A stretch of DNA of 64,000 bases, from assembly GCA_964651815.1 (NCBI GenBank), contig CAZYWG010000010.1:1377-65376 (forward strand), given 5' to 3'. A program made the translations under genes and the position numbers. Under the pieces are notes generated by a model that saw nothing but the letters and a program-made list of their open reading frames with translations, was not told where the DNA came from and made no database searches. Positions 32,935 to 60,222 of this stretch are shown one piece after another. This DNA comes from an uncultured Gammaproteobacteria bacterium (GTDB lineage Bacteria; Patescibacteriota; Microgenomatia; Levybacterales; GWA1-39-11). Within the stretch, counting starts at the first letter, position 1, and each line of letters begins with the position of its first letter.

Positions 32935-33084
32935 AATTTGTTCTTTTTACCTCCGTTTGGGGTTCGAATAATTCGAACAGAACATTATCCAAACGTGTTA
33001 AGATTTCATTATTATACTCGAACACGAGTGAAAAAACAACATTTCTTTGACAATATCAAAATTTATATACTAAAATGAATATTA

Positions 33085-34173
33085 GTGAGAAAAAAACCTG
33101 CCAGACATCTCAAAAAACATTTTAGGAAATACAAAAAGCACTTAGGTTTTGTTACTATTCTACTGCTTTTTATAATAATCGCACTCGCACTTCTACTGAC
33201 AGGATCATATTTAACTGGCAAAGATTTATCAACTCCAGTTCCAGGTGCGCCCGGGATTCCCGTAACTCCAGCAATAAGCGGACAGCAACAAAATCTCCAA
33301 TTAAAAACTTTTGGTTTTACAACTCCGGAACCAACAAAAACGTGCGCATATGATAGCGAAATGTCCGGTTGTTCTTGTCCTGACACATCCAAATGGGGGA
33401 ATTTCTATACGGACAAGCCTGAAGAAGTTTGTAGCTCTACCAACAATTGTCCTTTTGTGCAATTGTGTAAGGATACATGTGGCTGGAATTCTATCCAATG
33501 CGTAATACCAGATACTCTTGCCGGAAATCCTATTGGTCCACGACCTGATCACGGATACGCTATAAATTGTCAAGTTATAGGCACTTTACTTCAAAGCGGT
33601 AAAACATTGTGTGTTGGAAAACCCGTAATTTATCTCTATCCTGAAAAATCTACTCTTGTGGACGTGACACTTGAAATACCCGGCGAGATTTATATTAGTA
33701 TTCCAAAGTATCCGACTGAAGGATGGAAGAATGTTTTAGCCCAACCTAGCGGAACATTAACTTATCAAGGTCAAAATTATCACGAACTTTATTACGAATC
33801 AAAAGTTAAATCGAATATCAAACCCACCACTGGAATTATTATCCCTTCTTCACTACTCGCGGAAAAATTATTCGAACTGACCGGAAAACTTGGACTAAAA
33901 CCCACCGAACAAAAAGAATTTTTGGAATATTGGCTACCAAAACTAAAGGCACTTAATAAGCCGTACATTCTATTTTCCGTTTTGACTCGAGCTGAAAAAG
34001 AAAGTATTGACCATGTTGACATTAATCCAAAACCGGATGTTTTCATTAATTTCTTGGCTTACTTTAAAGGCCTTGACCTTCCGGTCGCTATTGAACCCCT
34101 TATAATCCCTCCCCAGCCTACTCGAACCGGTTTTACTGCAGTTGAATGGGGAGGAACAATTGACTCCGATTAA
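33085..34173 (+). CDS. Membrane-anchored secreted protein, paralog 1 of a tandem three-member family with a conserved about 200-aa C-terminal domain
   Basis: GTG start. Signal anchor. The C-terminal GKPVIYLYPEK...WK.VLA.P.G.L.YQ...Y.ELYYESKV...VEWGGTID is shared with 34219 and 35317. Confidence 0.55.
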   Translation: MRKKPARHLKKHFRKYKKHLGFVTILLLFIIIALALLLTGSYLTGKDLSTPVPGAPGIPVTPAISGQQQNLQLKTFGFTTPEPTKTCAYDSEMSGCSCPDTSKWGNFYTDKPEEVCSSTNNCPFVQLCKDTCGWNSIQCVIPDTLAGNPIGPRPDHGYAINCQVIGTLLQSGKTLCVGKPVIYLYPEKSTLVDVTLEIPGEIYISIPKYPTEGWKNVLAQPSGTLTYQGQNYHELYYESKVKSNIKPTTGIIIPSSLLAEKLFELTGKLGLKPTEQKEFLEYWLPKLKALNKPYILFSVLTRAEKESIDHVDINPKPDVFINFLAYFKGLDLPVAIEPLIIPPQPTRTGFTAVEWGGTIDSD

Positions 34174-34218
34174 ATCGGGGTTGACCCCAATTAATCAAGA
34201 TTCGGCAACTAAAAGACT

Positions 34219-35286
34219 TTGAGCAAAGATAAATCACTCAAAAATAACAGGAATTCCAGGGGGCAAATGATAATTGCCGCCGTCATTGTCGTCTTAATTA
34301 TTGGTTCGGTATTAATGGCCGGAGGTCTTAAATACAAAAAGGTGACTCCGTTTCCGGGCGCAATTCCCTACAGTCAAGACGATATCCTTACGCCTCCAGC
34401 CTCCCAATCAAAGAAAAATTTACAGCTCGATACTTTCAAATTCTGCACAAGAGCTCAAGGTGATGACGGAGTATGTTACGCTCAAAATTCTGGAATCTGC
34501 TGCCCCAACCAAGCTTGGGCAAAAGTTTTGTGTGAGAATAAAAAGTGCGTAGGAGTTGTGGATGATGCGCCTGGTAAGTACGTAAAGGGTCTGGCTGAAA
34601 AAGCCGGGATGAATGTTTGTGACTGGCTTGAACATCCCTCTGGAGACCCGGGAAATCATCCATCTATGCCGATAAGCGAATGGTGCTCGGCTTGCAATGC
34701 TACACCTGGATTTATGTGTTGGGGCAAACCGGTTATTCTCCTCTACCCTGAAAAACCAACACTTGTGAATGTTGAGGTTAAAACATTGGGTGAAATATAT
34801 GTATCTGACCCACTGTATCCGGCTGGTGGGTGGAAAGAAGTTTTAGCAAACCCTAACGGTTCTCTAGTTTATCAAAATAAAAAGTATAACGAACTATTTT
34901 ATGAATCTAAAGTAAAAAATTACGGAATGCCCGAAAATGGATACGTTTACAAAACGAGCGAACTTGACAATAAGATTCCCGAACTTCTTTATAATCTTGG
35001 TCTAAACAATACTAAGTCTGAAATTCCTGAGTTTATGGATTTCTGGCTTCCAAAACTTAATTCGCTTAACTCACCATATATTTTTGTTTCTCTAATTGAA
35101 AAAGAGATCAAAGAGAAAAATGACAAAGTTGTCATAAAGCCTGAACCTGATACACGAATCGAATTGATAGTTTATTTCAAACCTCTTGAATATCCTTTAC
35201 AGGTCAAACCCCTGACCATACCCACACGTCCGGAAAGGCGTGGTTTCACTGAGGTTGAATGGGGAGGGACAATTGATCTCGATTGA
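34219..35286 (+). CDS. Membrane-anchored secreted protein, paralog 2 (Cys-rich middle region)
   Basis: As paralog 1. Variable region has about 10 Cys. Confidence 0.55.
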   Translation: MSKDKSLKNNRNSRGQMIIAAVIVVLIIGSVLMAGGLKYKKVTPFPGAIPYSQDDILTPPASQSKKNLQLDTFKFCTRAQGDDGVCYAQNSGICCPNQAWAKVLCENKKCVGVVDDAPGKYVKGLAEKAGMNVCDWLEHPSGDPGNHPSMPISEWCSACNATPGFMCWGKPVILLYPEKPTLVNVEVKTLGEIYVSDPLYPAGGWKEVLANPNGSLVYQNKKYNELFYESKVKNYGMPENGYVYKTSELDNKIPELLYNLGLNNTKSEIPEFMDFWLPKLNSLNSPYIFVSLIEKEIKEKNDKVVIKPEPDTRIELIVYFKPLEYPLQVKPLTIPTRPERRGFTEVEWGGTIDLD

Positions 35287-35316
35287 ATCGAATTAGATTG
35301 TTTAAACTTTTGAAAA

Positions 35317-36576
35317 ATGACTACTATAAAAAATTCGAATCAGGGTCAAATGATGATAGCCGCGATAATAATTCTTTTGGCGGTGGGCTCATTAATGATG
35401 GCCGGAGGATTAAGGTACAAGAAACCAAATGCAAAATCCATTCCCGTCAACCCTTCCAACTACACCTGCTGTGACTCAGGTGACGGAGATACATGCAAAC
35501 CAAGTTCAACTGATAAATTTATGTGGAAAGGTACCAATGCACAACCTGAGGAGTATGCATTAATCAAATCCAACGTTATGCTCACTGAAGGGAATGGCCA
35601 CATGGCGCATGCAGTGGCGCCGGACGATAAAACACCAGACGACAAACCAATATTCATAGATACTTCTGAAAATGCCGGAGAATGCGGAGGCGGAAGTCAG
35701 GATCAGGTTTTTGGAAGCGGTTTAATGTGTGTTGCTATTCCGAATGATGAATTAATTTACGTCTGTGAAAAAAATTGCGACCAAAGTCTTAGTCAACCGG
35801 GCGTTTACGACGCGTATTACCGGACAAAAGATACTCCAATCCCTGATGTAATTAAGAACTGCACCAAGTCCCCTATAGCTCCAAATAGTAGCGGACAAAA
35901 AATAGTTTTTAATGGATCTAATTCCAAAAATAATTTACAACTCAATACTTTTAAAATAATAAATGACCAAACTCCTGCCCCTTGGCTTTCCCCATACTGT
36001 AAGCCTGCTATCTATCTTTATCCTGAGGAGAAATCTTTTGTTACGGTAAAACTTATTTCAAGCGAGGCGTTGACATATTCTGAGCCTCCCTACCCTATAA
36101 ATGGCTGGGGAGTTTTGGCAGATTCGTCTGGCCTTATTGATTACAACAATAAATTTTACGACTATTTGTATTATGAAACAAAGGTTGCAGATGATAATCT
36201 AGAAATTCCAACAAAAGGTTTTGTTGTAGAAAAGTCCGGTCTCAAACAATTGTTCGAGAATATTCTTCCAAGGCTTGGGTTAAATATTAAAGAAACGCAG
36301 CAATTTGAAGATTACTGGAACGGAAAACTTCCGCAGTCCCCTTATTATTTTGTAGGAATTATCCCACAACAAAACCTTGATAACTTAACGTCACTTAATA
36401 TAGCACCAAATCCGCAAACTGAAATCCGTGTCACACTTTACTTTAAACCGCTACAACAAAAAGTTTCAATGGAACCCCCAACAATAGTTACGCCCAAGCG
36501 GTCAGGATTTACGGTTGTTGAATGGGGCGGGATTTTCAAGAAAGACGTAAGCCATAACCTTTCCTGCTATCAATAG
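35317..36576 (+). CDS. Membrane-anchored secreted protein, paralog 3 (longer Cys-rich middle region)
   Basis: As paralogs 1 and 2. C-terminal PAIYLYPEEKSFVTV...VEWGGIFKKD. Confidence 0.55.
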   Translation: MTTIKNSNQGQMMIAAIIILLAVGSLMMAGGLRYKKPNAKSIPVNPSNYTCCDSGDGDTCKPSSTDKFMWKGTNAQPEEYALIKSNVMLTEGNGHMAHAVAPDDKTPDDKPIFIDTSENAGECGGGSQDQVFGSGLMCVAIPNDELIYVCEKNCDQSLSQPGVYDAYYRTKDTPIPDVIKNCTKSPIAPNSSGQKIVFNGSNSKNNLQLNTFKIINDQTPAPWLSPYCKPAIYLYPEEKSFVTVKLISSEALTYSEPPYPINGWGVLADSSGLIDYNNKFYDYLYYETKVADDNLEIPTKGFVVEKSGLKQLFENILPRLGLNIKETQQFEDYWNGKLPQSPYYFVGIIPQQNLDNLTSLNIAPNPQTEIRVTLYFKPLQQKVSMEPPTIVTPKRSGFTVVEWGGIFKKDVSHNLSCYQ

Positions 36577-36606: not shown

Positions 36607-37953
36607 TTGATACTATTGGTAATGAAAATGGTGAAGAGTTTAAAACAATCAGATCCCCGAATATTTGAATTAATAAAGGAAGAAGAAAAACGCCAAAGAG
36701 ACGTCCTTGAAATGATCCCCTCAGAAAACTACGCTTCATCTGCAGTCCTGGAAGCACTTGGAACGGTACTCAACAACAAATATTCAGAGGGATATCCCAA
36801 AAAAAGATATTACCAGGGAAATGCGGTTGCTGATGAGGTTGAACAACTCGCTATAGACCGCGCAAAAAAACTATTTGGTGTACCTTATGTAAACGTACAG
36901 GCTCTTTCAGGTAGTGTTATGAATCTTGCAGTATATTTTGCAACGCTTGAGCCTATGAAAGGAAAAATTATGGGTTTATCTCTCTCCTTTGGAGGACACC
37001 TAACCCATGGCGCAAAACTTACCGCTTCAAGCACATTTTATAAGTCGGTCCAGTACACTTTAGGCCGCGACGGGCAGCTTGATTTTGATCAAATCGAAAA
37101 ACAGGCAATTACAGAAAAGCCCAATATAATTGTCTGTGGATTTACAGCATATCCCCGAGTTATAGATTTTGAAAAGTTTTCAAAAATTGCAAAAAAAGTG
37201 AACGCACTTTTACTTGCTGACATTTCTCATATTGCCGGGCTCGTTGTAGGAGGAGCACACCCCTCTCCGGTGCCGTATGTTGACATAGTAACCACAACTA
37301 CTCACAAGACTCTTCGCGGCCCTCGTGGCGCTCTTATCATGGTCACAGAAAAAGGTTTGAAGCGTGATCCGGATTTAGGTGCAAAAATTGACAGAGCAAT
37401 TATTCCAGGGCTTCAAGGTGGCCCGCATGACAATCAAACAGCTGCAATTGCCGTTGCACTTCTTGAAGCATCCCGTCCAGAATTTAAAAAATATGCTTCA
37501 CAGATAGTAAAAAACTCCCGAGCCTTGGCTGAGGCGCTTACAAGCTATGGATTTGACTTAGTAAGTGGTGGGTCTGATAATCATTTGATATTAATTGATC
37601 TGCGGAACAAAAAAGTAAGTGGAAATGTTGCAGCCCTCGCTTTAGAACGGGCAGGAATTGTGCTTAATAAAAATGGGGTGCCGTATGATACAAATCCACC
37701 ATTCTACCCCTCAGGAATAAGACTTGGAACCCCGGCAATAACTACACGCGGACTCAAGGAGGGCGATATGAAAAAGGTAGCCACGTGGATTAATAAAGCC
37801 GTAGATTTAGTATCTCCAAACGAGGCACCGTCTGAAAAAGAAGCACGGACCGCTTGGTGGAAGGAAGAAAAAAAGAAAATTATGGCGAATAAAGAGTTAC
37901 TAAAAATTGGAAAAGAAGTAAAATCTTTCGCTTCAAAACTTCTTTTACCCTAA
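36607..37953 (+). CDS. glyA: Serine hydroxymethyltransferase
   Basis: PSENYAS, TTTTHKTLRGPRG (PLP lysine), GGPH. Confidence 0.9.
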   Translation: MILLVMKMVKSLKQSDPRIFELIKEEEKRQRDVLEMIPSENYASSAVLEALGTVLNNKYSEGYPKKRYYQGNAVADEVEQLAIDRAKKLFGVPYVNVQALSGSVMNLAVYFATLEPMKGKIMGLSLSFGGHLTHGAKLTASSTFYKSVQYTLGRDGQLDFDQIEKQAITEKPNIIVCGFTAYPRVIDFEKFSKIAKKVNALLLADISHIAGLVVGGAHPSPVPYVDIVTTTTHKTLRGPRGALIMVTEKGLKRDPDLGAKIDRAIIPGLQGGPHDNQTAAIAVALLEASRPEFKKYASQIVKNSRALAEALTSYGFDLVSGGSDNHLILIDLRNKKVSGNVAALALERAGIVLNKNGVPYDTNPPFYPSGIRLGTPAITTRGLKEGDMKKVATWINKAVDLVSPNEAPSEKEARTAWWKEEKKKIMANKELLKIGKEVKSFASKLLLP

Positions 37954-38846
37954 GAGGCAATTGCTAGAGGGTCTGATCTGTAAGCAACAATCGCAGGAAC
38001 TGTAACATGAGGACCTTTAAGATACACACTGTGAGGAGGAGGAGTTAAAACTACTCTTATAATATCGTATTTGGCAAACAGAGGATCTATTATTGCTGCC
38101 TGCCTGCTATCTAGGTTTGGGGTTTGGTTCTCTCTATGAAAAGCACAAAAAGTAAACCTGCCATCAGGCTTTAATTTTGTAACTAATAGATTTGGCTGGA
38201 GTAAATCGTTAATTCCAAGTTCTTCCGGGCGTAGCTGATGTGTATCGGAAAAGAGTAAACTTATTGATCCATCTGGCATTTTAGCCAGCTCTTCATCTGC
38301 ATCCCCATTTATAACGTTTATTTCTACATTAGGTGCCCCGGGAAATCTACTTCTCAACTCTGCGCGCTTTTGGTCTGCCCATTTCTGTGCGTATTTGAAA
38401 TTACCTTCATTTAATTCTACTATTGTGTGTGTACCACCCTCTGCCCTCAATCTATCATATATTCTATCTGCAATTTTCCCAAGTCCAAATCCTCTTTCAA
38501 CTACATTTTGAGGGCCATTTTTACCTTGGAACATATGGCGAACCGTCGCGTCAACCCATGGGGTCTCAAAATCATCCATTACTTGCTCATTGTCAATTAA
38601 AAGGATTCTGCCACCACCGTAAGGGGTTCCGTCAGGATATTCTCCTTCTCCATATACAGTAATTTTAGATTGTGATTTTCTCCATTTATCTTGCAATATC
38701 TTTCTGTCTACTAATTGTGCGTCTTTCCCATTTATTGAAAAGCCGGAGGCATACGTCTGGTCACCTACCACAGTAATATCTCCCGGCTGAGGACCCGAGT
38801 TTGCATTAAAAAACCTTCCTAATATAGGAAGTCCTTCGTGAGTCAT
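37950..38846 (-). CDS. Hypothetical protein with a class-I methyltransferase-like or spermidine-synthase-like fold signature
   Basis: VERGFGLGKIADRI (GxGxG-like). Weak. Confidence 0.35.
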   Translation of the reverse strand: MTHEGLPILGRFFNANSGPQPGDITVVGDQTYASGFSINGKDAQLVDRKILQDKWRKSQSKITVYGEGEYPDGTPYGGGRILLIDNEQVMDDFETPWVDATVRHMFQGKNGPQNVVERGFGLGKIADRIYDRLRAEGGTHTIVELNEGNFKYAQKWADQKRAELRSRFPGAPNVEINVINGDADEELAKMPDGSISLLFSDTHQLRPEELGINDLLQPNLLVTKLKPDGRFTFCAFHRENQTPNLDSRQAAIIDPLFAKYDIIRVVLTPPPHSVYLKGPHVTVPAIVAYRSDPLAIAS

Positions 38847-46237: not shown

Positions 46238-47572
46238 TTGCTTATTCTAAGTTCAAGGCATTTTATGCAAAAGTTGCGAGGCGGTATTGAATTTATTTTA
46301 TCTTCATCTAAATGGGCTTCGCTGCTTCTTATTATCATCGCGCTTTTACTTATTTCCTCAATATTTCTTAAAAATGGGAATAAAGCATCCGCACAAGAAG
46401 CCATTGCAAAACCCAATCTTACTGTCACTCAAGTTCAGCTCAGAAGAAACGCGTACCCTAATGCAAATTGTAGCAACGGAACATTAGTCACAGAGGGAAT
46501 GATGCTTAACCCCGGCGAGACTATAGAGGTCTGTATGGTTTATTCAAACAATGGAACTGCTGTTTCATCGTCGAATTTTAAAATTGACAATTACATAAAC
46601 CAAACAACACAACCCGCTGCCGGAACGCGGGGTTATCAATCATATCCTTATCCGCTTGGCTCACTTGGGCCAGGCGGAAGTTATACGTTGGAAATTGGAA
46701 GTATAGTCCCAAGCACTTCCATATGTTCATCTAATTGTCATGCCGGAGTATTTATTGATAGCGACAACACCGTAAGCGAGTCGAATGAAAGTGACAACTT
46801 TGCATATTCAGTTTCCTACAGTCTCCCAGCTGTTACTACTAGCTTCTGCGTTTCATGTGCTGCTCCACCCGATGGATGTAGTTATACAGGTGGCAGTTGC
46901 CAAAGCTGTGGCACTGTGGTCTGTACCACTTCAACTCCTGCGCCAACCTGTACCCCACGTCCTGCTTGTTCTCTACCCGGTGCTAATCCTATATGCGGAC
47001 TTGTAGAACTTACCGGCGGTGGAACATATTGTCCTCTTACCACACTTGCCCCTACAACAGTCGGCGGAAATGGTGCTCAATGTAGTGTTTCTCTAGCGCA
47101 GGGCGCAAGCCAGCATGGCTCATGTCAAAGTGCATATATTTGTCAGATTAACGCGGCATCTGCTTGTACAGATTCTATGCCAGGTTCCTGCACCGGTACT
47201 TGTGTTGTAACAACTACTCCTCCAATTTGCCCTCTTCATAATTCAGGTGACGCAAACTGCGACGGAAAAATTGATATAGAGGACTTTAACGTATGGAAAG
47301 CCGATTTTCTTTCTACTTTCGGAAGTGGTAATAATCCCGGTGATTCACTTGGACTAGCAGATTTCAACAATGACAATAAAGTGGATACTGATGATTTTAA
47401 TATTTGGCGGGATGGATTTATAATAAAAAGCGCTAAAACTGGCTCATGTAGTGCTGTACCTGACGCAAATGGCGTATGTCCGGCAGGATGTGTAAACTAC
47501 GGGAATCCACTTGGATGTGTAACACAACAATATTATGATGAATGCCAAACGCAAGGAGGCTGTCCCAAATGA
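46238..47572 (+). CDS. Secreted Cys-rich protein with two dockerin-like calcium-binding repeats
   Basis: DANCDGKIDIEDFNVWKADF and DFNNDNKVDTDDFNIWRDGF match the dockerin D-x-N-x-D-G-x-x-x-x-x-D pattern. About 40 Cys in a Thr/Pro/Gly-rich region. Confidence 0.5.
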   Translation: MLILSSRHFMQKLRGGIEFILSSSKWASLLLIIIALLLISSIFLKNGNKASAQEAIAKPNLTVTQVQLRRNAYPNANCSNGTLVTEGMMLNPGETIEVCMVYSNNGTAVSSSNFKIDNYINQTTQPAAGTRGYQSYPYPLGSLGPGGSYTLEIGSIVPSTSICSSNCHAGVFIDSDNTVSESNESDNFAYSVSYSLPAVTTSFCVSCAAPPDGCSYTGGSCQSCGTVVCTTSTPAPTCTPRPACSLPGANPICGLVELTGGGTYCPLTTLAPTTVGGNGAQCSVSLAQGASQHGSCQSAYICQINAASACTDSMPGSCTGTCVVTTTPPICPLHNSGDANCDGKIDIEDFNVWKADFLSTFGSGNNPGDSLGLADFNNDNKVDTDDFNIWRDGFIIKSAKTGSCSAVPDANGVCPAGCVNYGNPLGCVTQQYYDECQTQGGCPK

Positions 47573-47598
47573 TAAAACATATTTTTTAAGAGAGAACT

Positions 47599-50118
47599 AT
47601 GGAAAATAATATAAAAGTACATTTACCAAATATAGATACACCAAATGTTTTAAAACAACTTGGGAGATTTAAATTTTTAATAGGTGTTGTGGTTTTGGCA
47701 ATTTTGGCAATCTCAATTCCTTTGACTCTAAATCAAGTTAAAAAATTCCAGGAAAGCCGCTCCCATGCCGCCGCAGGTGAGGTCTCCATAAAGTTAACCC
47801 CATATGGAGAACCATTCCATGTCGGTGACCGTGTTTCATTGGTGGCTACTGTAGAAGATCAAAATCCAAATTATGACATTTCAGCAATTGATATAACAAT
47901 TGATTACGATAAAAATCTATTGGAACCCATGCCTATATGTGCAACTCCTGAATCCGGACCGCCACCTACTACCCCAGTGGAAGGTTGTCCCGCCGGACAA
48001 ATTGTTACACAAGAGGTCTTTGATACTAACGGCTTGGGTTTTACTACTATAGTTAAAAATATAAATAAAGATACCGGCACAGTTCATTATGTAGGTGTTA
48101 ACCCCACTTCACAGATACGAAATGGCGGAGTTGGTAAAGCTGTTACATTTGGAGGTCTCAACTTTAAAGCAAAAGCGCCCGGGAGTGCCACTGTCGGCTT
48201 TTCAAATATTCACATAAACGCAGCGGGAGTTACGGGTGCCCTTCCAATTGATACAACCAACACAAAAATCGGCACATACACAATTAGCACCGGGGCACAA
48301 ACTATCAGAGAATACATGAAAGGTAATAGTGGTAAACATATTGTAACTTTTAAATGCGACTCAAACTGCAATGGGCTCACCGGGCAATCAATTCCGCTCG
48401 CCATAATTCAGGATACAGCTGACATGCTAAAGGGATATTATGACAATGACACCACAAAAACCGTGCGCCTTTTCAACGCACCAGGACTTGACGGTAATGA
48501 ATCCACATTCTCTCTTGCCACAGGGTCTGACGTTGCATCCACTATCATTCTTACCGGTTCTGCCAAATTGTCAGACGGTACATTACATGGAGACGCAAGA
48601 ACTAGCTCCGGCCAAATTCTTGAATGGGAAATGGACTCCTCCACTGGAACTACGTCTCCGGACTTACGAGGAAATTACAGACTTGCCGGAACCTGTGTCA
48701 CTGGCTGTACCGGAGATTTTATACATATTATGAAAATTACAGCCATGGACGGTGAAGTATTTTCAGGAACCGGATATTATATTGCTGATCCGTCAATAAC
48801 TTGGACAGTAACAGGAACCGTAAATCCCGCCACCAAAGTAGTCCTATTTCATATAGTCTATACCGGAACAACTGCAGGTTACTCATCAGAATTCACGGGT
48901 ACTTTAAAGAGCGATGGAAGCATGTCTGGGACTAACACTTCAAGCCAAAACCAAACCGGCACATGGATTTTAACACCTTTAAAAAGCCTAAAAGGTCTTT
49001 ACAATTTAGATGCCACCTGCACAATAAATTGTACAGGTGATTATATTCATACTGTGAATATTACGGATGAAAATATAGACACAGGAACCTTTTCCGGAAA
49101 AGGAATCTATAATGGCGATACTTCAGTTACGTGGGATATTACAGGTACTGAAAATTGGGTCAATAAAACTATGACTTTCCACTTAAATTACACTGGCACA
49201 GGCGCCGGCTATAAAGCAGATGGAACAGGGAAAATCCGTGATGACGGAACTATGGATGGAACTGACACCACTAGCCAAAACCAAACCGCCAATTGGAAAA
49301 TGACACCTATTAAACCTACTCACTGTGGAGGAAATACTGCAAATCCGCTCACTTGCCAGGCCGGCCAAGTTTGTATTCCAGTTCCAGGGCAAAATGCACC
49401 TGCGGGGGATGTTGGCGGAATTTGTGTCGTCTCCGAACAACCACAGTCATGCACAGATGATTCTTCATGTCCAGCAGGATACACCTGCAATGTAGTTGCA
49501 GTTGCGGGAGCTGTACCTGGCACAAATGGCACAGGTGGAGTTAACAGTTCTGAATTAAAACAGTGCGTACTCACAGGTGGAACGTCATTAAGCCTTTCTT
49601 TGAAGCTTCCTGGTGTAGGCAATGGCGCTGCCAGCCTGCAACTTAATGCAAACCCTAAAAGACTAGAAAGGGGTGTAACTATAGTTTTGTCTAATTCACA
49701 AAATCAGCAATTGGAATCTGTCACTGGAAAATTACTCTACGATAGGACAAGTGGCTTATATAAAGGAATTATAAATCTCGGCAAAACTATACAAACGGGC
49801 GCATATCTTATAAAAGTCAGTGTTGACAATAGCTTGCGCAAATCCCTACCTGGAATCCAAAATATTACGGTAGACACAATCAATCAGAGTTCAACCATAG
49901 AATTTCTTCAGGGGGATATAGTTGCAAGTGACGGAACGGCACAGCAAGATAACGTTATAGATGTAGCCGACTATACAACATTCCTTGCGTGCTACCGCAA
50001 AGCAACATCGTGTACAGCGGAAATTAAATCAAGGGCGGATTTCACAGATGATGGTGTAGTTGACGATAAGGACCTGAACATCCTTTATACTGCCTTTAAG
50101 GCAAGACAAGGAGATTAA
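47599..50118 (+). CDS. Large surface protein with an N-terminal cohesin-like segment, two internal about 105-aa tandem repeats, and a C-terminal dockerin-like repeat
   Basis: IDITIDYDKNLLEP is cohesin-like. The repeat units start RGNYRLAGTCVTGCTGDFIH... and KGLYNLDATCTINCTGDYIH.... C-terminal DFTDDGVVDDKDLNILYTAF is dockerin-like. Confidence 0.5.
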   Translation: MENNIKVHLPNIDTPNVLKQLGRFKFLIGVVVLAILAISIPLTLNQVKKFQESRSHAAAGEVSIKLTPYGEPFHVGDRVSLVATVEDQNPNYDISAIDITIDYDKNLLEPMPICATPESGPPPTTPVEGCPAGQIVTQEVFDTNGLGFTTIVKNINKDTGTVHYVGVNPTSQIRNGGVGKAVTFGGLNFKAKAPGSATVGFSNIHINAAGVTGALPIDTTNTKIGTYTISTGAQTIREYMKGNSGKHIVTFKCDSNCNGLTGQSIPLAIIQDTADMLKGYYDNDTTKTVRLFNAPGLDGNESTFSLATGSDVASTIILTGSAKLSDGTLHGDARTSSGQILEWEMDSSTGTTSPDLRGNYRLAGTCVTGCTGDFIHIMKITAMDGEVFSGTGYYIADPSITWTVTGTVNPATKVVLFHIVYTGTTAGYSSEFTGTLKSDGSMSGTNTSSQNQTGTWILTPLKSLKGLYNLDATCTINCTGDYIHTVNITDENIDTGTFSGKGIYNGDTSVTWDITGTENWVNKTMTFHLNYTGTGAGYKADGTGKIRDDGTMDGTDTTSQNQTANWKMTPIKPTHCGGNTANPLTCQAGQVCIPVPGQNAPAGDVGGICVVSEQPQSCTDDSSCPAGYTCNVVAVAGAVPGTNGTGGVNSSELKQCVLTGGTSLSLSLKLPGVGNGAASLQLNANPKRLERGVTIVLSNSQNQQLESVTGKLLYDRTSGLYKGIINLGKTIQTGAYLIKVSVDNSLRKSLPGIQNITVDTINQSSTIEFLQGDIVASDGTAQQDNVIDVADYTTFLACYRKATSCTAEIKSRADFTDDGVVDDKDLNILYTAFKARQGD

Positions 50119-52937: not shown

Positions 52938-54452
52938 TTGAAGAATTTATTAACGCACTACAGAAAATCCATCAATCCCCCATATGGCGGAAAAGATTAT
53001 CCCGCTATCGCAGCAACCTTATTGTTTCTTCTAGTTTCATTAGTTGTAATAATAAGTCTTCCCAATAAGCTAAACCAAAACGCTTATCCAAAAAGCGGCT
53101 CTGCACAAACTGTTACAAACAGAATAACATGGCAAGGAAACAACTGGTATATTCACGGCGCAAACGTTCCATGGTACAACTGGGGGTGTGATTTTGGGTG
53201 TAACTCAACAAATGGGAAAAGCGGCGGCGTTTCGAACAACCTAAGCAATCTCACTGTAGCATTCCAACAGGCAAAAAATTCAGGAGTTCATGTTTTAAGG
53301 TGGTGGGTTTTTCCGGGTGATCCGTGGCAAATCACGCGTGACAGCGCGGGCCCAACCGGAATTGATCCTGCCGTATATCCTGATTTTGATGCGGCTTTAA
53401 ATCTTGCAAACCAATATGATATGTACTTTAATTTTATGTTGTTTTCTGCACCCACTGCTATGCCAAGTGCATGGGAGACTGATACAACCCAGAGAGGCAA
53501 ATTAGTTCAAGCGCTCAGCACTCTTTTTGCGCATTATGCCGGCAATCCAAGAATACTGTCTTGGGAAATTTACAACGAACCGGAAAATGACATTTGGAAT
53601 AATAGGATAGCTCAACAACCCGTTGTTGATACCGGTACTGCTATTGCAACTGCAGTCCACTCAAGTTCTCCAGGGACGCTTGTCACGGTAGGAAGTTTAT
53701 TTGCTGATGGAATGAAAATGTGGCTAAATGCTGGACTTGACTACTATTCTCCTCACTGGTATGACTACATGAGCGGTGGCGATTATTGCATGATTTGTCA
53801 CAATTATAGTTATTATTCTGCTTGGGGAGTAACAAAACCAATTGTAGTTGGTGAATTTTATTCGGGAACAAGCGCAACGACACCGACATCTTCAAACAGG
53901 TATGATTATTGGTATAACAACGGCTATGCTGGCGCGTGGGCTTGGTCATTATTCCCAAGTCATACTAGCGACGGTTTGCAAATTGATTTTACTGCTGCAA
54001 CAAATTTTGCTTCTCAACATGCAGATATTGGGCCAATTGCCGGATTTTCCTCAACCCCAACGCCTACTCAGGCCGTATCCTTGACACCTACCCCCGCAAT
54101 CTCACAGGCACCATCTTCTACTCCCACACCATCGCCAAGCCTTACTCCTGTACCGACAGTAGGATCAAATGACGCAACCGCTCCAACTGTGACTATCACC
54201 TCGCCTTTAGCCGGCTCAACTGTAGCTGTTAGGAAGAATGTAACAATTCAAGCAACTGCCTCTGACAACGTTGGAGTTTCGAGGGTAGAATTCTATATCA
54301 ATGGAACGCTGACCTGTACCGACATTTCGAGCCCCTACTCTTGTTCTTGGAAAGTTCCTGGCTCAAAGAACAGAACTTACAAATTGTCTGCCAAGGCGTC
54401 GGATGCTGCCGGTAATAATTCAACAAGCTCAATTAGTGTTACTGCAAGATAA
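52938..54452 (+). CDS. Glycoside hydrolase family 5-like (cellulase/mannanase clan GH-A) with a C-terminal Ig-like domain. Signal-anchored with an N-terminal YRKSINPPY motif.
   Basis: WEIYNEPEN (GH5 acid/base NEP motif), then a Thr/Pro linker and a 95-aa Ig-like domain shared with four neighbours. Confidence 0.65.
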   Translation: MKNLLTHYRKSINPPYGGKDYPAIAATLLFLLVSLVVIISLPNKLNQNAYPKSGSAQTVTNRITWQGNNWYIHGANVPWYNWGCDFGCNSTNGKSGGVSNNLSNLTVAFQQAKNSGVHVLRWWVFPGDPWQITRDSAGPTGIDPAVYPDFDAALNLANQYDMYFNFMLFSAPTAMPSAWETDTTQRGKLVQALSTLFAHYAGNPRILSWEIYNEPENDIWNNRIAQQPVVDTGTAIATAVHSSSPGTLVTVGSLFADGMKMWLNAGLDYYSPHWYDYMSGGDYCMICHNYSYYSAWGVTKPIVVGEFYSGTSATTPTSSNRYDYWYNNGYAGAWAWSLFPSHTSDGLQIDFTAATNFASQHADIGPIAGFSSTPTPTQAVSLTPTPAISQAPSSTPTPSPSLTPVPTVGSNDATAPTVTITSPLAGSTVAVRKNVTIQATASDNVGVSRVEFYINGTLTCTDISSPYSCSWKVPGSKNRTYKLSAKASDAAGNNSTSSISVTAR

Positions 54453-54500
54453 CATATTCAATAGTCTAGAAACTAGCTACTGGCAAAATACGGCAGGGAA

Positions 54501-56747
54501 ATGAAATTGAAACAACTTATACAAACATATAGAAAAGGGATTAATCCACCATATTCTAAAAAAGATTTCCCAATTGTTGCAGGTACTCTACTCGTTTTGC
54601 TTATTGTTACTCTTGTTGTAGTTATTCTTCCTAATCAATATAAGAGTAAACAAACAGAAAACACTCATGCACAGGAAGTAAAAAAGATTGAGGTACAAGC
54701 TGCACCAGACGAAATTTTAGTAAAATTTAAACCAGGGGCAACAGAACGGATTAAAAATTCTGTCAGGCGGGCATTTGGACTAACCAAAAAAGATGAACTT
54801 ACGCAAATTGGTGTTGAAGTATTGAAAACAACTCCGGTGAACCGGGATCACATCGCCGAAGCGTTAAATAAACGACCTGAAGTTCAGTTTGCGCAACTCA
54901 ATTTTATTACTAAACCTGCAATTGTACCAAATGACACTAATTATTCTACACAATGGCACTTACCTGATATTTCTGCAGATAGAGCTTGGGATGTTGCAAA
55001 AGCTACTGGAATCCTAATAGGAATGTGTGATACAGGAGTAAATCAAGTTCCGGATCTAGCCCCGGTCTTGCGGACAGATCTTGGTTGGAACGCGGTTGAT
55101 GGATCTAGCAACTTCAGTGACCCCATAGGGCACGGAACCGGTACGGCGGGTGCGGCTGCGGCAGCAACAAACAATGCTCTTGGGGTAGCTGGCGTTGCTT
55201 GGGGAGCACAAATTATACCTGTTAGAGTCAGCAATCTTTCGGATGGTTCCGCGTATACAAGTGATATTGCAAAATGTATTAATTATTCGGCAGATCATGG
55301 AGCAAAAGCTATCAATGCTTCCTACGGTGTAGCCGGCGACTCAACTATCAATTCAGCCGGACTTTATGCACAGAGCAAAGGAGCATTGCTTACTATTTCT
55401 GCCGGAAATAGTGGTTTGGATCCAGGATGGTCTAACTTGCCAGGTATTATTGCAGTTTCCGCTATGGACACTCTTAACAATCCTGCTACCTTTACAAATT
55501 TCGGAAATTTTATTGATGTGGCAGCCCCAGGTGCAAGTATTTATACTACAAAAAATGACGGAAACTATTGGTATACTGCAGGTACGTCTTTTAGCGCGCC
55601 GATTGCAGCCGGAGTGATTGGCCTTATTTTCGGCGCAAAACCCTCATTAACTGCAGCTCAGGCTCAGGATATTTTGTTTAAAAATTCGGATGATCTTGGG
55701 ATCTCTGGATGGGATAAATATTTTGGATGGGGACGAGTTAATGCGCTCCGCACTGTAGATGCAGCCCTGGGTCTTGCACCGGACACTACGGCACCCATTG
55801 TTTCCATTACCAATCCTATAACAAATTCTACTGTTTCCGGCCAATCTGTATCAATTAGTACACAAGCTTCAGATAATTTTGGAGTAACTAAAGAAGAACT
55901 TTATATAGACAACGCTCTAATTGGAACAACGACCTGGTTCTTCTCCGGTGGAACTGCATCGTTCACTTGGGACTCAAGAACCGTTCCAAATGGATCACAT
56001 ACTATCATCGCCAAAGCTTATGATGGGGCAGATAATGCTGGAACTTCAACATCTGTAATAATCAATGTTGTGAATTCTTCCGATATCACTGATCCCACAA
56101 TTTCAATCACAAGTCCGGCAAACAACACCACTGTTTCCGGAACTATAAATGTTGCAGCAATAGCATCAGATAACATTGGTGTAGTAAAAGTAACTTTTGA
56201 TAAGTTTGGTGCACCGTTACAAACATTTACTAACCCTCCTTATTCTTTTTCCTGGGACACAAATGCCGCATTGGCGAGCCAATGTCCAACCACATGTATA
56301 ACAAATATTCAGGCGACAGCATATGATGCCGCTGGAAATTATGCATCTGCAAACGTAGGTATAACTTATAACAATAGTGGTGTAACTACCTCTCCTACAG
56401 CAACACCAACAATTGGTTTATCTCCCACAAATACTCCCATTCCATCCCCTACACCTTCCTTAACAGATCATACTTCGCCAACTGTAACTATCTCCTCTCC
56501 TCTCGCGGGGTCAACAGTAGCGGTTCGTTCAAATGTAAATATCCAAGCAACAGCTTCTGACAATATTGGAGTTGCCCGAACAGAGTTCTATGTCAATGGA
56601 ACTCTCACTTGTAGCGATACGAGCTCACCCTACTCTTGTTCTTGGAAAGTGCCGGGAGCTAAGAATAAAAGCTATTCGATTAGTGCAAAAACGTATGATG
56701 CTGCTGGAAATAATTCAACAAGCTCAATTAGTGTAACGGCAAAATGA
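54501..56747 (+). CDS. Subtilisin-like serine protease (peptidase S8) with I9 propeptide and three C-terminal Ig-like domains. N-terminal YRKGINPPY motif.
   Basis: Catalytic triad contexts GMCDTGVN (Asp), HGTGTAG (His), GTSFSAPIAAG (Ser). Confidence 0.8.
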   Translation: MKLKQLIQTYRKGINPPYSKKDFPIVAGTLLVLLIVTLVVVILPNQYKSKQTENTHAQEVKKIEVQAAPDEILVKFKPGATERIKNSVRRAFGLTKKDELTQIGVEVLKTTPVNRDHIAEALNKRPEVQFAQLNFITKPAIVPNDTNYSTQWHLPDISADRAWDVAKATGILIGMCDTGVNQVPDLAPVLRTDLGWNAVDGSSNFSDPIGHGTGTAGAAAAATNNALGVAGVAWGAQIIPVRVSNLSDGSAYTSDIAKCINYSADHGAKAINASYGVAGDSTINSAGLYAQSKGALLTISAGNSGLDPGWSNLPGIIAVSAMDTLNNPATFTNFGNFIDVAAPGASIYTTKNDGNYWYTAGTSFSAPIAAGVIGLIFGAKPSLTAAQAQDILFKNSDDLGISGWDKYFGWGRVNALRTVDAALGLAPDTTAPIVSITNPITNSTVSGQSVSISTQASDNFGVTKEELYIDNALIGTTTWFFSGGTASFTWDSRTVPNGSHTIIAKAYDGADNAGTSTSVIINVVNSSDITDPTISITSPANNTTVSGTINVAAIASDNIGVVKVTFDKFGAPLQTFTNPPYSFSWDTNAALASQCPTTCITNIQATAYDAAGNYASANVGITYNNSGVTTSPTATPTIGLSPTNTPIPSPTPSLTDHTSPTVTISSPLAGSTVAVRSNVNIQATASDNIGVARTEFYVNGTLTCSDTSSPYSCSWKVPGAKNKSYSISAKTYDAAGNNSTSSISVTAK

Positions 56748-58207
56748 TTAGAGAGATGAAAAAGTTATTAAAAGATTATAGAAAGGCAATTAATCCTCCG
56801 TACTTAAAAACGGATGTTCCGATTATAAGTGCTACCCTGCTCATTCTCCTGCTCGCAGTCATCCTGATCCTAAATTTACCGGATGTATTCAATTCAAAAA
56901 AAATTACTGAATCTCATGCGGCAGTTGATTGCGGAACATCACTTCAGACAAAAATTGATGGGGCTCTATCGGGTTCCACAGTGGACCTGACCGGTTGCAC
57001 ATATAGCGGGACTAATATTCAGATTTCAAAACCCTTAACAATAATCGGGGGAAGTTTTAACTCAACTTCAACTGATCGCTGGAGCAATGCTTTTGTAATT
57101 AATTCAGATAACGTAACTGTTCAGAAATGGACATTTGCTGGAGGTGGTCAAATTATTGCGGATCTTGGACACTCAAATGTAAATATTCTCAACAACAGTT
57201 TTTCCAATCAATTAGGCTCCTCTGTAGCGCTCTGGGGAGCATCAAACAACGTAATAATTGACGGAAATAAAATTGTTCAATCTGTAACAAATCAAGTTTC
57301 ACCTATAATAGCAAGAGCATCGGAAGATTGCTCTGTCTATCTTAAAAACTTAATAATAAGAAACAACTATATGGATCAGGGACCGGCCGGGGTAGGTTGG
57401 TTTGGTATAGAACTAAAATGTAATGATGGTGTCCTAATTGAAAATAATACGCTCCATGGTGGAGAAACCTTAGTCTCTCTCCCGGATACTAATAATGTTC
57501 AGGTTAAAAATAATACATTTGACATGACCGGAGATGCTTATTGGGGGGTGGAAATAGCCCATGCAAACAACGTGACAGTCGCTGGAAATACATTTTTCGG
57601 AGATGGGCCTTCTGGCACAGATCATGCGGTATCAGAAAACAGCGGCAGTCAAAACTCCTATATATCCGGTAATAATGTGCATGATATTAGAACTCTTGTT
57701 GATGTAGGTGGGGATTATATCTCAATAACTGATAATTGCCTGGTAAATGTGTTGAGGGTAACGGAATATGATAGTTCGGGAACTCATGTAATATTGTCAA
57801 ACAACGGTCCGTGTCCTTCTCCTTCTGTTACACCAACGGGTGTAATTACTACTCCATCAACGACTCCGACACCCGCACCAACTGTGACTGCATTCCCAAC
57901 TCCCGCACCAACCGTGACCTCAAACGACACAACATCCCCTAGCGTTAGGATAGATTCCCCGCTTAACGGATCAATAATAAAAGCAAAATCTACAACGTCA
58001 ATTACCGCGTCGGCTTCAGATAATTTGGGAGTGACAAGAGTTGAATTTCTAGTCAACGGTACGCTCATCTGTTCGGATACCACTTCGCCTTACACGTGCT
58101 CATGGAGAGTACCAGGTTCAAGAAATAGAACATATACTATTTCTGCCAAAGCATATGACGCCGCCGGAAATAATTCAACTAGTTCTATTAGTGTCACGGC
58201 AAAGTGA
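56744..58207 (+). CDS. Right-handed parallel beta-helix (pectate-lyase-like) protein with a C-terminal Ig-like domain. N-terminal YRKAINPPY motif. ATGA overlap with the S8 gene.
   Basis: Repeated NN(x)F/I...G..N beta-helix rungs (NVNILNNSF, NNVIIDGNKIV, IIRNNYM, IENNTLHGG, VKNNTFDMTGD, VAGNTFFGDG). Confidence 0.5.
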   Translation: MIREMKKLLKDYRKAINPPYLKTDVPIISATLLILLLAVILILNLPDVFNSKKITESHAAVDCGTSLQTKIDGALSGSTVDLTGCTYSGTNIQISKPLTIIGGSFNSTSTDRWSNAFVINSDNVTVQKWTFAGGGQIIADLGHSNVNILNNSFSNQLGSSVALWGASNNVIIDGNKIVQSVTNQVSPIIARASEDCSVYLKNLIIRNNYMDQGPAGVGWFGIELKCNDGVLIENNTLHGGETLVSLPDTNNVQVKNNTFDMTGDAYWGVEIAHANNVTVAGNTFFGDGPSGTDHAVSENSGSQNSYISGNNVHDIRTLVDVGGDYISITDNCLVNVLRVTEYDSSGTHVILSNNGPCPSPSVTPTGVITTPSTTPTPAPTVTAFPTPAPTVTSNDTTSPSVRIDSPLNGSIIKAKSTTSITASASDNLGVTRVEFLVNGTLICSDTTSPYTCSWRVPGSRNRTYTISAKAYDAAGNNSTSSISVTAK

Positions 58208-58300
58208 GGTTAACTCTTGACAAAATTACAGTATTAATACAACAATTAACTTGTTAAGCATTTGAGAAAAACTTATTTTCGACTAATTAAATAAAAAACC

Positions 58301-59620: not shown

Positions 59621-59643
59621 TCTCTTCTCATAGAAGAAAATAT

Positions 59644-60012
59644 TTAGATAAGTTCTTCTAGCTCCTCAGGTGCATCATGGTCTTCAAAAACTCCTTGCTC
59701 ATCCCAAATAAGCGCTTGAAGTAGATATTCTTTCAGAAGACGAAGACGTTTTATTTCTTTTAGCAATTTTGTTGCTTTTTGAGGGTGGTTGCGGACTAAT
59801 TGATAGAAAAGCGATTCGAGTTGCTGTAATCTATTTGAAATTGCCTGATGAGTTGCAATAATTTTTCCCTGGCGGCTCCTCTTTCTGTATGTTTTAAATT
59901 CACGTAACCGCTGCCACTCGCCGGCCTGAATTTCGCGATTCAAATCTGAATCTACAACATCATCGCGCTTTTCTTGAGTACTGGACTTTTCTTCTTTATT
60001 TTTTTTCTCCAT
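59644..60012 (-). CDS. Hypothetical charged protein (122 aa)
   Basis: ORF only. Confidence 0.3.
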   Translation of the reverse strand: MEKKNKEEKSSTQEKRDDVVDSDLNREIQAGEWQRLREFKTYRKRSRQGKIIATHQAISNRLQQLESLFYQLVRNHPQKATKLLKEIKRLRLLKEYLLQALIWDEQGVFEDHDAPEELEELI

Positions 60013-60015
60013 GAA

Positions 60016-60222
60016 TTATCTTACTACTTCTGCAAGTTTTTCCGGAAGGTCTATTCCTGTACGCACAAGCCCAGAACCCACAGCGCCCCCCATTTTACGT
60101 GCGATGTTGTAATAAATCCACTTATCTTTCCTGCGAATTGCCGCAAGATAATCAAAAATATCCCAGTTTTGTGTATTGTATTCTCTTTCCATATTATTGT
60201 TTAATTTTTTGGCTCCCGCCAT
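60016..60222 (-). CDS. Hypothetical small protein. Start is ambiguous (Met at 60222 or 60192), and it overlaps a second small minus-strand ORF at 60201..60356 encoding a 51-aa membrane peptide.
   Basis: Two overlapping small frames; neither verified. Confidence 0.25.
   Translation of the reverse strand: MAGAKKLNNNMEREYNTQNWDIFDYLAAIRRKDKWIYYNIARKMGGAVGSGLVRTGIDLPEKLAEVVR

What the first reader, a model, noticed from the sequence alone, without database searches (positions are those of the whole stretch)
33085..36576. Tandem triplication of a membrane-anchored secreted protein family with a conserved C-terminal domain and hypervariable Cys-rich middle
Three consecutive plus-strand genes encode proteins with signal anchors and a shared about 200-aa C-terminal domain (GKPVIYLYPEK...GGWK.VLA.P.G.L.YQ...Y.ELYYESKV...L.P....FVS.........KPEPD....L..YFKPL......P..IP..P.R.GFT.VEWGGTID). 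The regions between anchor and domain differ completely (0, about 10 and about 14 Cys). A diversifying N-module with a constant C-module suggests host or surface-interaction proteins under selection. The C-terminal domain matches no family recognisable by eye.
Basis: seen in the sequence. Interest (0 to 1): 0.6.

Follow-up and report, generated by a model that had tools for sequence, protein, structure and literature searches.

The report
Ancient paralogues sharing an undescribed exported domain
Three neighbouring genes of a candidate-phyla-radiation bacterium encode membrane-anchored exported proteins that end in the same roughly 185-residue domain, which belongs to a very large, unnamed family with no detected match among solved structures; they are old, conserved paralogues, not a fast-diversifying surface-antigen set.

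Summary
The three plus-strand genes exist: A 33085-34173, B 34219-35286, C 35317-36576. Each has one N-terminal membrane anchor and a significantly similar C-terminal domain of about 185 aa (pairwise E 8e-32 to 3e-72). All three proteins have exactly 10 Cys, not 0, 10 and 14. A and B align over their full length. The middle modules are conserved between orthologues (48-63% identity) on a fixed Cys framework, so they are not hypervariable. Each paralogue is closer to orthologues in other genomes (45-66%) than to its neighbours (38-40%), so the duplications are ancient. The array lies in a syntenic slot between rpsB and glyA that holds at least 2-5 copies in related genomes. The C-domain hits no Pfam, NCBIfam, PHROG, PADLOC or PDB entry. 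It nevertheless has 6,913 cluster representatives at 50% identity, spans many Patescibacteria lineages, and occurs alone as a lipoprotein in Clostridia (hhalign 100%). AlphaFold models are confident (pLDDT 85-88) but have no Foldseek match in the PDB. K, Ser/Thr, E, E, R, E and three Trp are kept in over 97% of 587 copies. Best reading: a conserved extracytoplasmic catalytic or ligand-binding head on paralogue-specific disulfide modules. Its biochemical function is unknown.

The parts
33047..33076 (+). Promoter-like site (TTGACA, 18 nt spacer, TAAAAT; 11 of 12 matches) ending 8 nt before the GTG start of gene A. Candidate operon promoter.
   Evidence: Consensus match only; the total number of such sites in the region is not above the shuffled expectation.
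33085..34173 (+). Gene A (362 aa, GTG start): basic N-region, membrane anchor, Pro-rich linker, NLQLKTF motif, 10-Cys module, C-terminal domain.
   Evidence: The orthologue P0047 is 66% identical over the full length, including the N-terminus.
33145..33210 (+). A: single hydrophobic anchor (about aa 21-42) after an N-region with 8 Lys/Arg.
   Evidence: mean Kyte-Doolittle value up to 3.2; no second hydrophobic segment.
33292..33312 (+). A: NLQLKTF motif (aa 70-76).
   Evidence: L and Q nearly invariant in 116 relatives.
33343..33612 (+). A: Cys-rich module (aa 87-176, 10 Cys).
33613..34170 (+). A: conserved C-terminal domain (aa 177-362), from KPVIYLYP to GFTAVEWGG.
   Evidence: domain HMM E=2.6e-84.
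34219..35286 (+). Gene B (355 aa from TTG 34219; the source annotation starts at ATG 34267, giving 339 aa). Same architecture as A.
   Evidence: The upstream start keeps the family's 'RGQM' N-terminal motif.
34267..34329 (+). B: hydrophobic anchor (aa 17-37).
   Evidence: AF2 helix at residues 2-17 of the 339-aa model.
34417..34437 (+). B: NLQLDTF motif (aa 67-73).
34444..34719 (+). B: Cys-rich module (aa 76-167, 10 Cys), predicted folded (block-mean pLDDT about 69-93).
34720..35283 (+). B: conserved C-terminal domain (aa 168-355).
   Evidence: block-mean pLDDT 84-98; E=3.6e-85.
35317..36576 (+). Gene C (419 aa, ATG): anchor, distinct conserved beta-rich N-module with 8 Cys, linker with NLQLNTF, C-terminal domain, short conserved Cys-containing tail.
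35350..35412 (+). C: hydrophobic anchor (aa 12-32).
   Evidence: (helix 10-28).
35449..35871 (+). C: subfamily-specific N-module (about aa 45-185; motifs CCDSGDG, IPNDE.IYVC, GIPD.IKNC).
   Evidence: invariant C51 C52 C123 C150 C182; pLDDT mostly above 84; no PDB match.
35932..35952 (+). C: NLQLNTF motif (aa 206-212), here about 15 residues before the Cys that precedes the C-domain.
35998..36546 (+). C: conserved C-terminal domain (aa 228-410).
   Evidence: E=9.2e-60.
36547..36573 (+). C: subfamily-specific tail carrying the tenth Cys (C417; subfamily consensus HPFSC.M).

Best explanation
The three genes are probably one operon. They encode single-pass membrane proteins with the N-terminus inside and the rest exported. 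From the membrane outward each protein has a Pro-rich linker, a short conserved NLQLxTF motif, a disulfide-rich module and a C-terminal alpha/beta domain of about 185 residues. That domain is the working part. It belongs to a very large family that no searched library describes, present across Patescibacteria and, as a bare lipoprotein, in Clostridia. It carries an almost unchanging set of polar and aromatic residues: Lys5, Ser/Thr31, Glu64, Glu103, Arg175, Glu182, Trp40, Trp111 and Trp183. I infer that these residues form a catalytic or small-ligand-binding site that acts outside the cytoplasmic membrane on a conserved target, most plausibly a component of the cell envelope. I also infer that the disulfide modules are accessory parts specific to each paralogue that position or target the head. 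A, B and C are ancient, non-redundant paralogues kept in a syntenic rpsB-to-glyA slot, not a recent triplication and not a set of variable antigens. Shown: gene structure, homology, family size and spread, residue invariance, orthology, synteny, and the lack of any match in the family and structure libraries searched. Inferred: outward topology, disulfide bonding, co-transcription, that the invariant residues form a single site, and the nature of the target.
For: Architecture and homology. Exported location: even Cys counts (6, 8 or 10) in 111 of 116 relatives; some relatives replace the anchor with a lipobox (P0072, P0104, and Clostridial and Erysipelotrichaceae forms); an MdbA-like disulfide oxidoreductase is reported as enriched in the CPR (PMC6744442). 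The domain works as an independent unit: minimal lipoproteins consist of lipobox plus domain; hhalign between the CPR and Clostridial profiles gives 100% probability, E=1.2e-46; fusions exist to VWA, SdrD_B/CarboxypepD_reg and ankyrin repeats, sometimes with three domain copies per protein. Family size and spread: 6,913 representatives at E<=1e-3; 5,756 Clostridial-branch clusters; at least 553 loci among species-representative genomes. Not described in the libraries searched: Pfam, NCBIfam, PHROGs, PADLOC and PDB sequence profiles all negative. Confident AF2 models (pLDDT 87.8 and 85.2) have no Foldseek PDB match (best E 0.6 and 0.26, TM<=0.15). Fixed residue set: K5 584/585, E64 584/584, E103 583/584, W111 584/584, R175 582/583, E182 578/582, W183 582/582, S/T31 571/586 among 587 distinct copies; all are present in A, B and C. 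Ancient paralogy and synteny. Operon: gaps of 45 and 30 nt, no terminator-like site between the genes, strong promoter-like site upstream of A.
Confidence: 0.55

Rival explanations
1. These are host- or surface-interaction adhesins whose Cys-rich middle or N-module diversifies under positive selection, while the C-domain is a constant scaffold.
For: The middle modules are the least conserved folded part: family-wide mean pairwise identity is 0.28 (0.19 without the Cys columns) against 0.54 for the C-domain, and their length ranges from 60 to 162 aa. They look like variable loops on a disulfide scaffold. Copy number varies between related genomes. Fusions to VWA and SdrD_B-type adhesin modules exist. 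CPR bacteria are thought to live attached to hosts (PMC6744442).
Against: Orthologues keep these modules at 48-63% identity with every Cys aligned. C's N-module is about as conserved as its C-domain. No cassettes, repeats or signs of gene conversion were found. The same domain works without any Cys module in free-living gut Clostridia. The best-conserved part is the end farthest from the anchor.
Confidence: 0.15
2. A non-catalytic structural assembly. The paralogues, together with the PsbP-like partner where present, form a hetero-oligomeric complex or layer on the outer face of the membrane, and the invariant residues mediate subunit contacts or folding.
For: Distinct paralogue types (C-type with B- and A-like types) co-occur in the same locus in several genomes. 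A convergent PsbP-like membrane protein accompanies the genes in 14 of 80 representative loci and in L001, L002, L005, L006 and L008. Short gaps between the genes suggest co-expression. Tandem copies occur within single polypeptides.
Against: 72 of 80 representative loci carry a single copy within 6 kb on either side. Clostridial genes stand alone. This window has no partner gene. Interface residues are rarely this invariant across phyla.
Confidence: 0.15
3. Pilin-like proteins. The [KR]-G-[Q/F] sequence before the hydrophobic helix is a class III (prepilin-type) signal, and the proteins are displayed on a type IV pilus or pseudopilus as large tip subunits.
For: Many relatives have a basic leader ending in Gly, followed by about 21 hydrophobic residues. 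A-type proteins read '..LG|FVTILLL', which resembles G|FTLIE. Type IV pili are widespread in the CPR (PMC6744442). From general knowledge, some minor pilins such as GspK lack Glu5.
Against: There is no Glu at position +5. No pilin globular fold follows the helix; AF2 predicts a coil or Pro-rich linker. Other members use a plain anchor or a lipobox. The window has no canonical prepilin motif and no pilus genes among the ORFs scanned.
Confidence: 0.05
4. Protective inhibitor or immunity proteins. These would be membrane-tethered binders that neutralise an external hydrolase or toxin, as lysozyme-inhibitor lipoproteins and immunity-gene arrays do.
For: The domain is small, exported and membrane-tethered. 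Relatives form tandem arrays with variable copy number. Two Clostridial loci sit next to BlaI/BlaR1 stress-sensing pairs.
Against: The BlaI/BlaR1 neighbourhood was absent from four further loci. No toxin genes are adjacent. Conservation is very high across phyla and the genes sit in a housekeeping syntenic slot. There are no PADLOC hits.
Confidence: 0.05

Closest known systems
Poorly annotated membrane-associated protein families enriched in the CPR (Meheust et al. 2019, PMC6744442)
   Same: Proteins with a single membrane helix, a predicted extracellular location, poor annotation and wide distribution in the CPR. The paper also reports a CPR-enriched disulfide oxidoreductase, which suits Cys-rich exported proteins.
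   Different: I could not map this family to any of that paper's family numbers. This domain is not restricted to the CPR: it has a very large Clostridial branch.
Modular cell-surface proteins of Gram-positive-type bacteria, such as SdrD-type proteins with B repeats and VWA-containing surface or pilus-tip proteins
   Same: Exported and modular. Some family members carry VWA, SdrD_B or CarboxypepD_reg modules upstream of the domain, and a VWA protein sits directly upstream in L001.
   Different: A, B and C have no VWA, SdrD_B or LPXTG motif. They are tethered by an N-terminal anchor. Their shared domain matches none of those families.
Type IV (pseudo)pilins with class III signal peptides
   Same: A short basic leader ending in Gly, followed by a hydrophobic helix of about 20 residues, is seen in many members.
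   Different: No Glu5, no pilin fold after the helix, and the anchor is interchangeable with a lipobox or plain membrane helix.
Single-domain extracytoplasmic lipoproteins of Firmicutes (general class)
   Same: The Clostridial and Erysipelotrichaceae relatives consist of a lipobox followed directly by the domain, about 205 aa in total.
   Different: No sequence or Foldseek similarity to any solved lipoprotein. The window's proteins use a membrane helix plus Cys-rich modules instead of a lipobox.
Uncharacterised Terrestrivirus protein A0A3G4ZNZ8 (BFVD predicted structure)
   Same: The only significant structural match found: Foldseek E=4.3e-9, probability 1.00, TM 0.43 over 210 columns, 19% identity.
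   Different: It is itself uncharacterised and comes from a giant-virus metagenome bin, so it adds no functional information.

Membership tests
Unnamed 'KPxIYLYP...GFTxVEWGG' domain family (defined here by profile A3) | N-terminal strand motif K-P-x-[IV]-Y-L-Y-P | tested here: met
   A has KPVIYLYP, B has KPVILLYP and C has KPAIYLYP. K and P are kept in at least 584 of 585 copies.
Unnamed 'KPxIYLYP...GFTxVEWGG' domain family (defined here by profile A3) | Invariant Glu64, Glu103, Trp111, Arg175 and the G-F-T-x-V-E-W-G-G C-terminal strand | tested here: met
   All are present in A, B and C and in at least 99% of 587 copies. Domain HMM E-values for the window copies are 9e-60 to 4e-85.
Unnamed 'KPxIYLYP...GFTxVEWGG' domain family (defined here by profile A3) | Extracytoplasmic location (signal anchor, signal peptide or lipobox upstream) | tested here: inconclusive
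   Each window protein has a single N-terminal anchor, relatives have lipoboxes and Cys counts are even. No topology predictor or experiment was available.
Any Pfam-A, NCBIfam, PHROG or PADLOC family | Score above the curated cut-off or a significant E-value | tested here: not met
   No hits for A, B, C, for 33 domain sequences or for 9 non-CPR relatives.
Any family with a solved structure (PDB) | Sequence-profile or fold match | tested here: not met
Type IV pilin or pseudopilin (class III signal) | Gly at -1, hydrophobic N-terminal helix with Glu at +5, followed by the pilin alpha-beta fold | tested here: not met
   A Gly-then-hydrophobic pattern is present in many members, but there is no Glu5 and the helix is followed by a coil or Pro-rich linker. 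The window has no canonical prepilin motif.
Bacterial lipoprotein | Lipobox [LVI][ASTVI][GAS]C at the end of a signal peptide | tested here: not met
   A, B and C have no Cys before residue 51. Lipoboxes occur only in relatives.
Variable-surface-protein or contingency locus | Hypervariable region between close relatives, with repeats, cassettes or recombination tracts | tested here: not met
   Orthologues are 48-63% identical in the middle modules, with Cys positions conserved. The only DNA repeat is the stretch encoding GFTxVEWGG. Strain-level data were not available.
VWA-domain surface proteins | von Willebrand factor A domain | tested here: not met
   Absent from A, B and C. Present only in some relatives (P0067, P0228) or in neighbouring genes.

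The most novel reading that the evidence does not exclude
The C-terminal module is a new protein fold with a new extracytoplasmic catalytic or ligand-binding site (Lys, Ser/Thr, three Glu, Arg, three Trp). It would be among the largest domain families of monoderm-type bacteria (CPR and Clostridia) still missing from the domain libraries searched here. In Levybacteria-like CPR it has expanded into an ancient set of A-, B- and C-type paralogues, often with PsbP-like partners, that carries out a core envelope or cell-contact function specific to these very small cells.
Probability: 0.3. Interest if true: 0.7.

Novelty: new variant of a known kind. Interest (0 to 1): 0.45.

Why it matters
If the inference holds, thousands of 'hypothetical' exported proteins in Patescibacteria and in gut and rumen Clostridia share one module with a sharply defined candidate active or binding site and a confidently predicted fold that has no detected match among solved structures. 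The minimal form is a roughly 205-aa Clostridial lipoprotein, which should be easy to express. Structural and biochemical work on that form would therefore annotate a very large unannotated family at once. It would also say what CPR bacteria, whose surface biology is mostly unknown, do with three to five copies of this domain kept beside a core housekeeping cluster. For this window specifically, the result removes the suggestion of an antigen-variation or diversifying-selection system.

Tried and rejected
1. Known-family assignment. Pfam, NCBIfam, PHROGs and PADLOC were run on A, B and C; Pfam was also run on the domain alone and on non-CPR relatives. Nothing was found.

3. BlaI/BlaR1 association. 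It was seen in L082 and L058 but was absent from four more Clostridial loci, so I rejected it as coincidence.

4. Pilin hypothesis. Rejected because there is no Glu5, no pilin fold, the anchors are interchangeable, and the window has no prepilin motif and no pilus genes among the ORFs scanned.

5. Recent duplication or gene conversion. Rejected: DNA identity between the C-domains is 49-60% and only the motif-coding stretch repeats.

6. Partner gene in the window. No homologue of the PsbP-like partner was found.

7. Disulfide machinery. No thioredoxin-type CxxC candidate was found in the window by pattern search.

8. RNA regulatory elements. None found.

9. Literature. Two searches and two papers gave only general CPR context and no description of this family.

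10. dN/dS on the variable region. Not attempted, because the nearest orthologues are at most 66% identical and synonymous sites would be saturated.

11. Mapping invariant residues onto the models. Not possible, because model coordinates are not exposed to the scripts.
Full report
**What is there.** The window reads as a CPR (Patescibacteria) genome. On the minus strand, recR, frr, rseP, a small ORF, tsf and rpsB end at 32934. Three plus-strand genes follow, then glyA, a CBS-methyltransferase gene, a DUF975 gene and a gene cluster that includes thyA. The three genes are A 33085-34173 (362 aa, GTG start), B 34219-35286 (355 aa from a TTG; the source annotation starts at ATG 34267 and gives 339 aa) and C 35317-36576 (419 aa). 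An independent assembly carries the same locus with the same gene calls.

The gaps between the genes are 45 and 30 nt, with no terminator-like site between them. An 11-of-12 sigma-70-type match ends 8 nt before A's start. A three-gene operon is therefore likely, but it is inferred.

**Checking the observation.** The shared C-terminal domain is real and highly significant: A-B E=3e-72, A-C E=8e-32, B-C E=6e-39. The window contains only these three copies. Each protein has one N-terminal hydrophobic segment followed by a Pro-rich stretch.

Four details in the finding are wrong.
- All three proteins have exactly 10 Cys.
- A and B align over their full length at 38% identity and share one Cys framework. 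Only C has an unrelated N-module.
- The Cys positions are invariant or nearly invariant in 116 relatives, and Cys counts are 6, 8 or 10 in nearly all.
- DNA identity between the C-domains is only 49-60%, and the only DNA repeat is the stretch encoding GFTxVEWGG.

**The paralogues are ancient, not a recent triplication.**
- A is 66% identical to P0047 over its whole length, with every Cys aligned.
- B is 60% identical to a gene in L007.
- C heads a subfamily of more than 115 relatives conserved over the full length, with its own motifs and a conserved Cys-containing tail.
- A, B and C are only 38-40% identical to each other.

Related genomes have the same recR-frr-rseP-tsf-rpsB block followed by an array of family genes. 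L006 has 5 copies and L008 has 4. L007, which runs off the end of its contig, has at least 3, plus a frameshifted copy and a partial copy at the contig end. In all three the C-type gene comes first. In L006 the array is followed by glyA, DUF975, DHFR and thyA. The window has a contracted version of this array with a different gene order.

Between orthologues the Cys-rich module is 48-55% identical where the C-domain is 73-78%. C's N-module is 53-63% identical against 64-69% for its C-domain. The middle evolves about twice as fast as the C-domain, but it is not hypervariable.

**The domain family.** A, B, C, 33 domain sequences and 9 non-CPR relatives hit nothing in Pfam. A, B and C also hit nothing in NCBIfam, PHROGs or PADLOC. 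The family is nevertheless very large.
- An exhaustive profile search found 6,913 cluster representatives at 50% identity with E<=1e-3, and 2,704 with E<=1e-30.
- A scan of species-representative genomes confirmed at least 553 loci. They cover many Patescibacteria lineages, plus bins labelled Clostridia, Oscillospiraceae, Ruminococcus, Erysipelotrichaceae, Mollicutes, Spirochaetaceae, Bdellovibrionales, Brumimicrobium, Planctomycetota and one 'archaeon'. Some record titles, such as 'uncultured Gammaproteobacteria' on CPR-like contigs, look unreliable.
- In Clostridia and Erysipelotrichaceae the minimal protein is a lipobox followed directly by the domain, about 205 aa. That branch alone has 5,756 clusters at 90% identity, all hypothetical.
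- hhalign between the CPR profile and the Clostridial profile gives 100% probability, E=1.2e-46.

The domain also occurs after VWA and SdrD_B modules, and in three copies interleaved with ankyrin or CarboxypepD_reg repeats. It is therefore an independent, portable, exported module. The Cys-rich parts are additions specific to particular lineages and paralogues.

**Structure.** AlphaFold2 models built on deep alignments are confident: B has mean pLDDT 87.8, with the C-domain mostly 84-98, and C has mean pLDDT 85.2. The C-domain is predicted as about a dozen beta-strands (eight of three or more residues before the first helix) with two long helices and one short helix.

**Clues to function.** In 587 distinct domain copies gathered here, a set of residues is almost never lost:

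| Residue (profile A3 numbering) | Copies retaining it |
|---|---|
| K5 | 584 of 585 |
| S or T at position 31 | 571 of 586 |
| W40 | 582 of 585 |
| E64 | 584 of 584 |
| E103 | 583 of 584 |
| W111 | 584 of 584 |
| R175 | 582 of 583 |
| E182 | 578 of 582 |
| W183 | 582 of 582 |

All of these residues are present in A, B and C. Such invariance across phyla, at about 35% overall identity, is what a catalytic or specific ligand-binding site looks like. I therefore take the C-domain to be the functional head, acting on a conserved extracytoplasmic target. That step is inference, because I could not inspect coordinates to see whether the residues cluster.

Genomic context gives no help. Clostridial neighbourhoods are unrelated to each other, and a BlaI/BlaR1 adjacency seen twice was absent in four more loci. 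The CPR context is housekeeping genes.

In the closest CPR relatives a convergent PsbP-like membrane protein of about 210 aa accompanies the genes (14 of 80 representative loci). This window lacks it. Of the 80 loci, 72 have a single copy within 6 kb on either side. Arrays and partner genes are therefore elaborations specific to this lineage.

**Rival explanations.**
The loops between Cys residues are poorly conserved family-wide, copy number varies, and adhesin-type fusions exist. Orthologue conservation and the absence of any cassette or repeat machinery argue against it.
- *A structural hetero-oligomer* of the paralogues, with or without the partner, is possible.
- *A pilin-like reading* of the [KR]-G-[Q/F] N-terminus fails on Glu5, on fold and on the interchangeability of anchors.
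- *An immunity or inhibitor role* has no specific support.

**Verdict.** The genes are ordinary in kind: modular, membrane-tethered exported paralogues. They carry a domain that none of the family libraries searched describes, that is very widespread, and that appears structurally novel, with a sharply defined candidate functional site. I rate interest as moderate (0.45). It would be higher if the fold and an activity prove new.

Noticed in passing
L001:9062-9742, L002:9090-9704, L002:10795-11406, L005:9617-10276, L006:7881-8519/10608-11189/12332-12973, L008:9053-9697 (all minus strand): In the closest CPR relatives, family genes are often followed by a convergent membrane-anchored gene of about 190-230 aa. 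These genes are homologous to each other (BLASTP E 1e-6 to 4e-29) and weakly PsbP-like (PsbP_2 E=3.9e-5, below the curated cut-off). The gene is present in 14 of 80 representative loci and absent from this window.
   Followed up: partly
window 52938-62753 (+): A second cluster of exported proteins shares a constant C-terminal module. Four of its genes end in Big_7 Ig-like domains: two S8 subtilases with a fervidolysin-type prodomain, a beta-helix protein and a 504-aa protein. A fifth gene, a weaker S8 subtilase match at 58301-59620, has no Big_7 hit.
   Followed up: partly
window 46238-50118 (+): A CARDB-domain protein (444 aa) is followed by an 839-aa protein with no significant Pfam match (only faint Lustrin Cys-rich and cohesin hits). 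These may be further surface proteins.
   Followed up: no
window 6584-8826 (-): An ApbE flavin-transferase gene lies next to a protein combining an NQR2/RnfD-like membrane domain with an NAD-binding domain. This looks like a small extracytosolic flavinylation or redox module in a CPR genome.
   Followed up: no
window 34219 vs 34267: The start codon of gene B is ambiguous. The source annotation uses the ATG at 34267, which has an AGGGGG Shine-Dalgarno-like sequence 3 nt upstream. That start removes the basic N-region and the 'RGQM' motif that relatives keep. The TTG at 34219 restores both.
   Followed up: partly
window 33047-33087: The strongest promoter-like site (11 of 12 matches) ends only 8 nt before A's GTG start, and there is no Shine-Dalgarno sequence. 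This implies a leaderless or nearly leaderless mRNA starting at a GTG, which would be unusual.
   Followed up: no
A aa 70-76 (33292-33312), B aa 67-73 (34417-34437), C aa 206-212 (35932-35952): A nearly invariant NLQLxTF motif sits before the Cys-rich module in A and B. In C it sits after the N-module, about 15 residues before the Cys that precedes the C-domain. Its role is unknown; it could be a docking strand or a processing site.
   Followed up: partly
P0121 (Spirochaetes bacterium GWB1_36_13, OHD11522.1), L004:8001-11363: A 1,120-aa secreted protein is built from three nearly identical units, each made of ankyrin repeats plus this domain. P0245 similarly interleaves the domain with CarboxypepD_reg repeats.
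   Followed up: partly
BFVD A0A3G4ZNZ8 (Terrestrivirus sp.): This is the only significant structural match to the domain. It is an uncharacterised 406-aa protein from a giant-virus metagenome bin. It may reflect horizontal transfer or binning contamination.
   Followed up: no
L007:6227-7969, L008:4589-6345, L005:10539-11300: In several related genomes uppS (Prenyltransf), in two of them together with a polyprenyl synthase gene, lies inside or beside the family array. This echoes the bacterial rpsB-tsf-frr-uppS-rseP envelope-biogenesis cluster (general knowledge). No uppS was found among the window ORFs that were scanned.
   Followed up: no
window 37950-38846 (-): A 298-aa ORF convergent with glyA has only a weak precomputed hit to a guanidinoacetate N-methyltransferase-like family and no hit in my own Pfam scan.
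   Followed up: no
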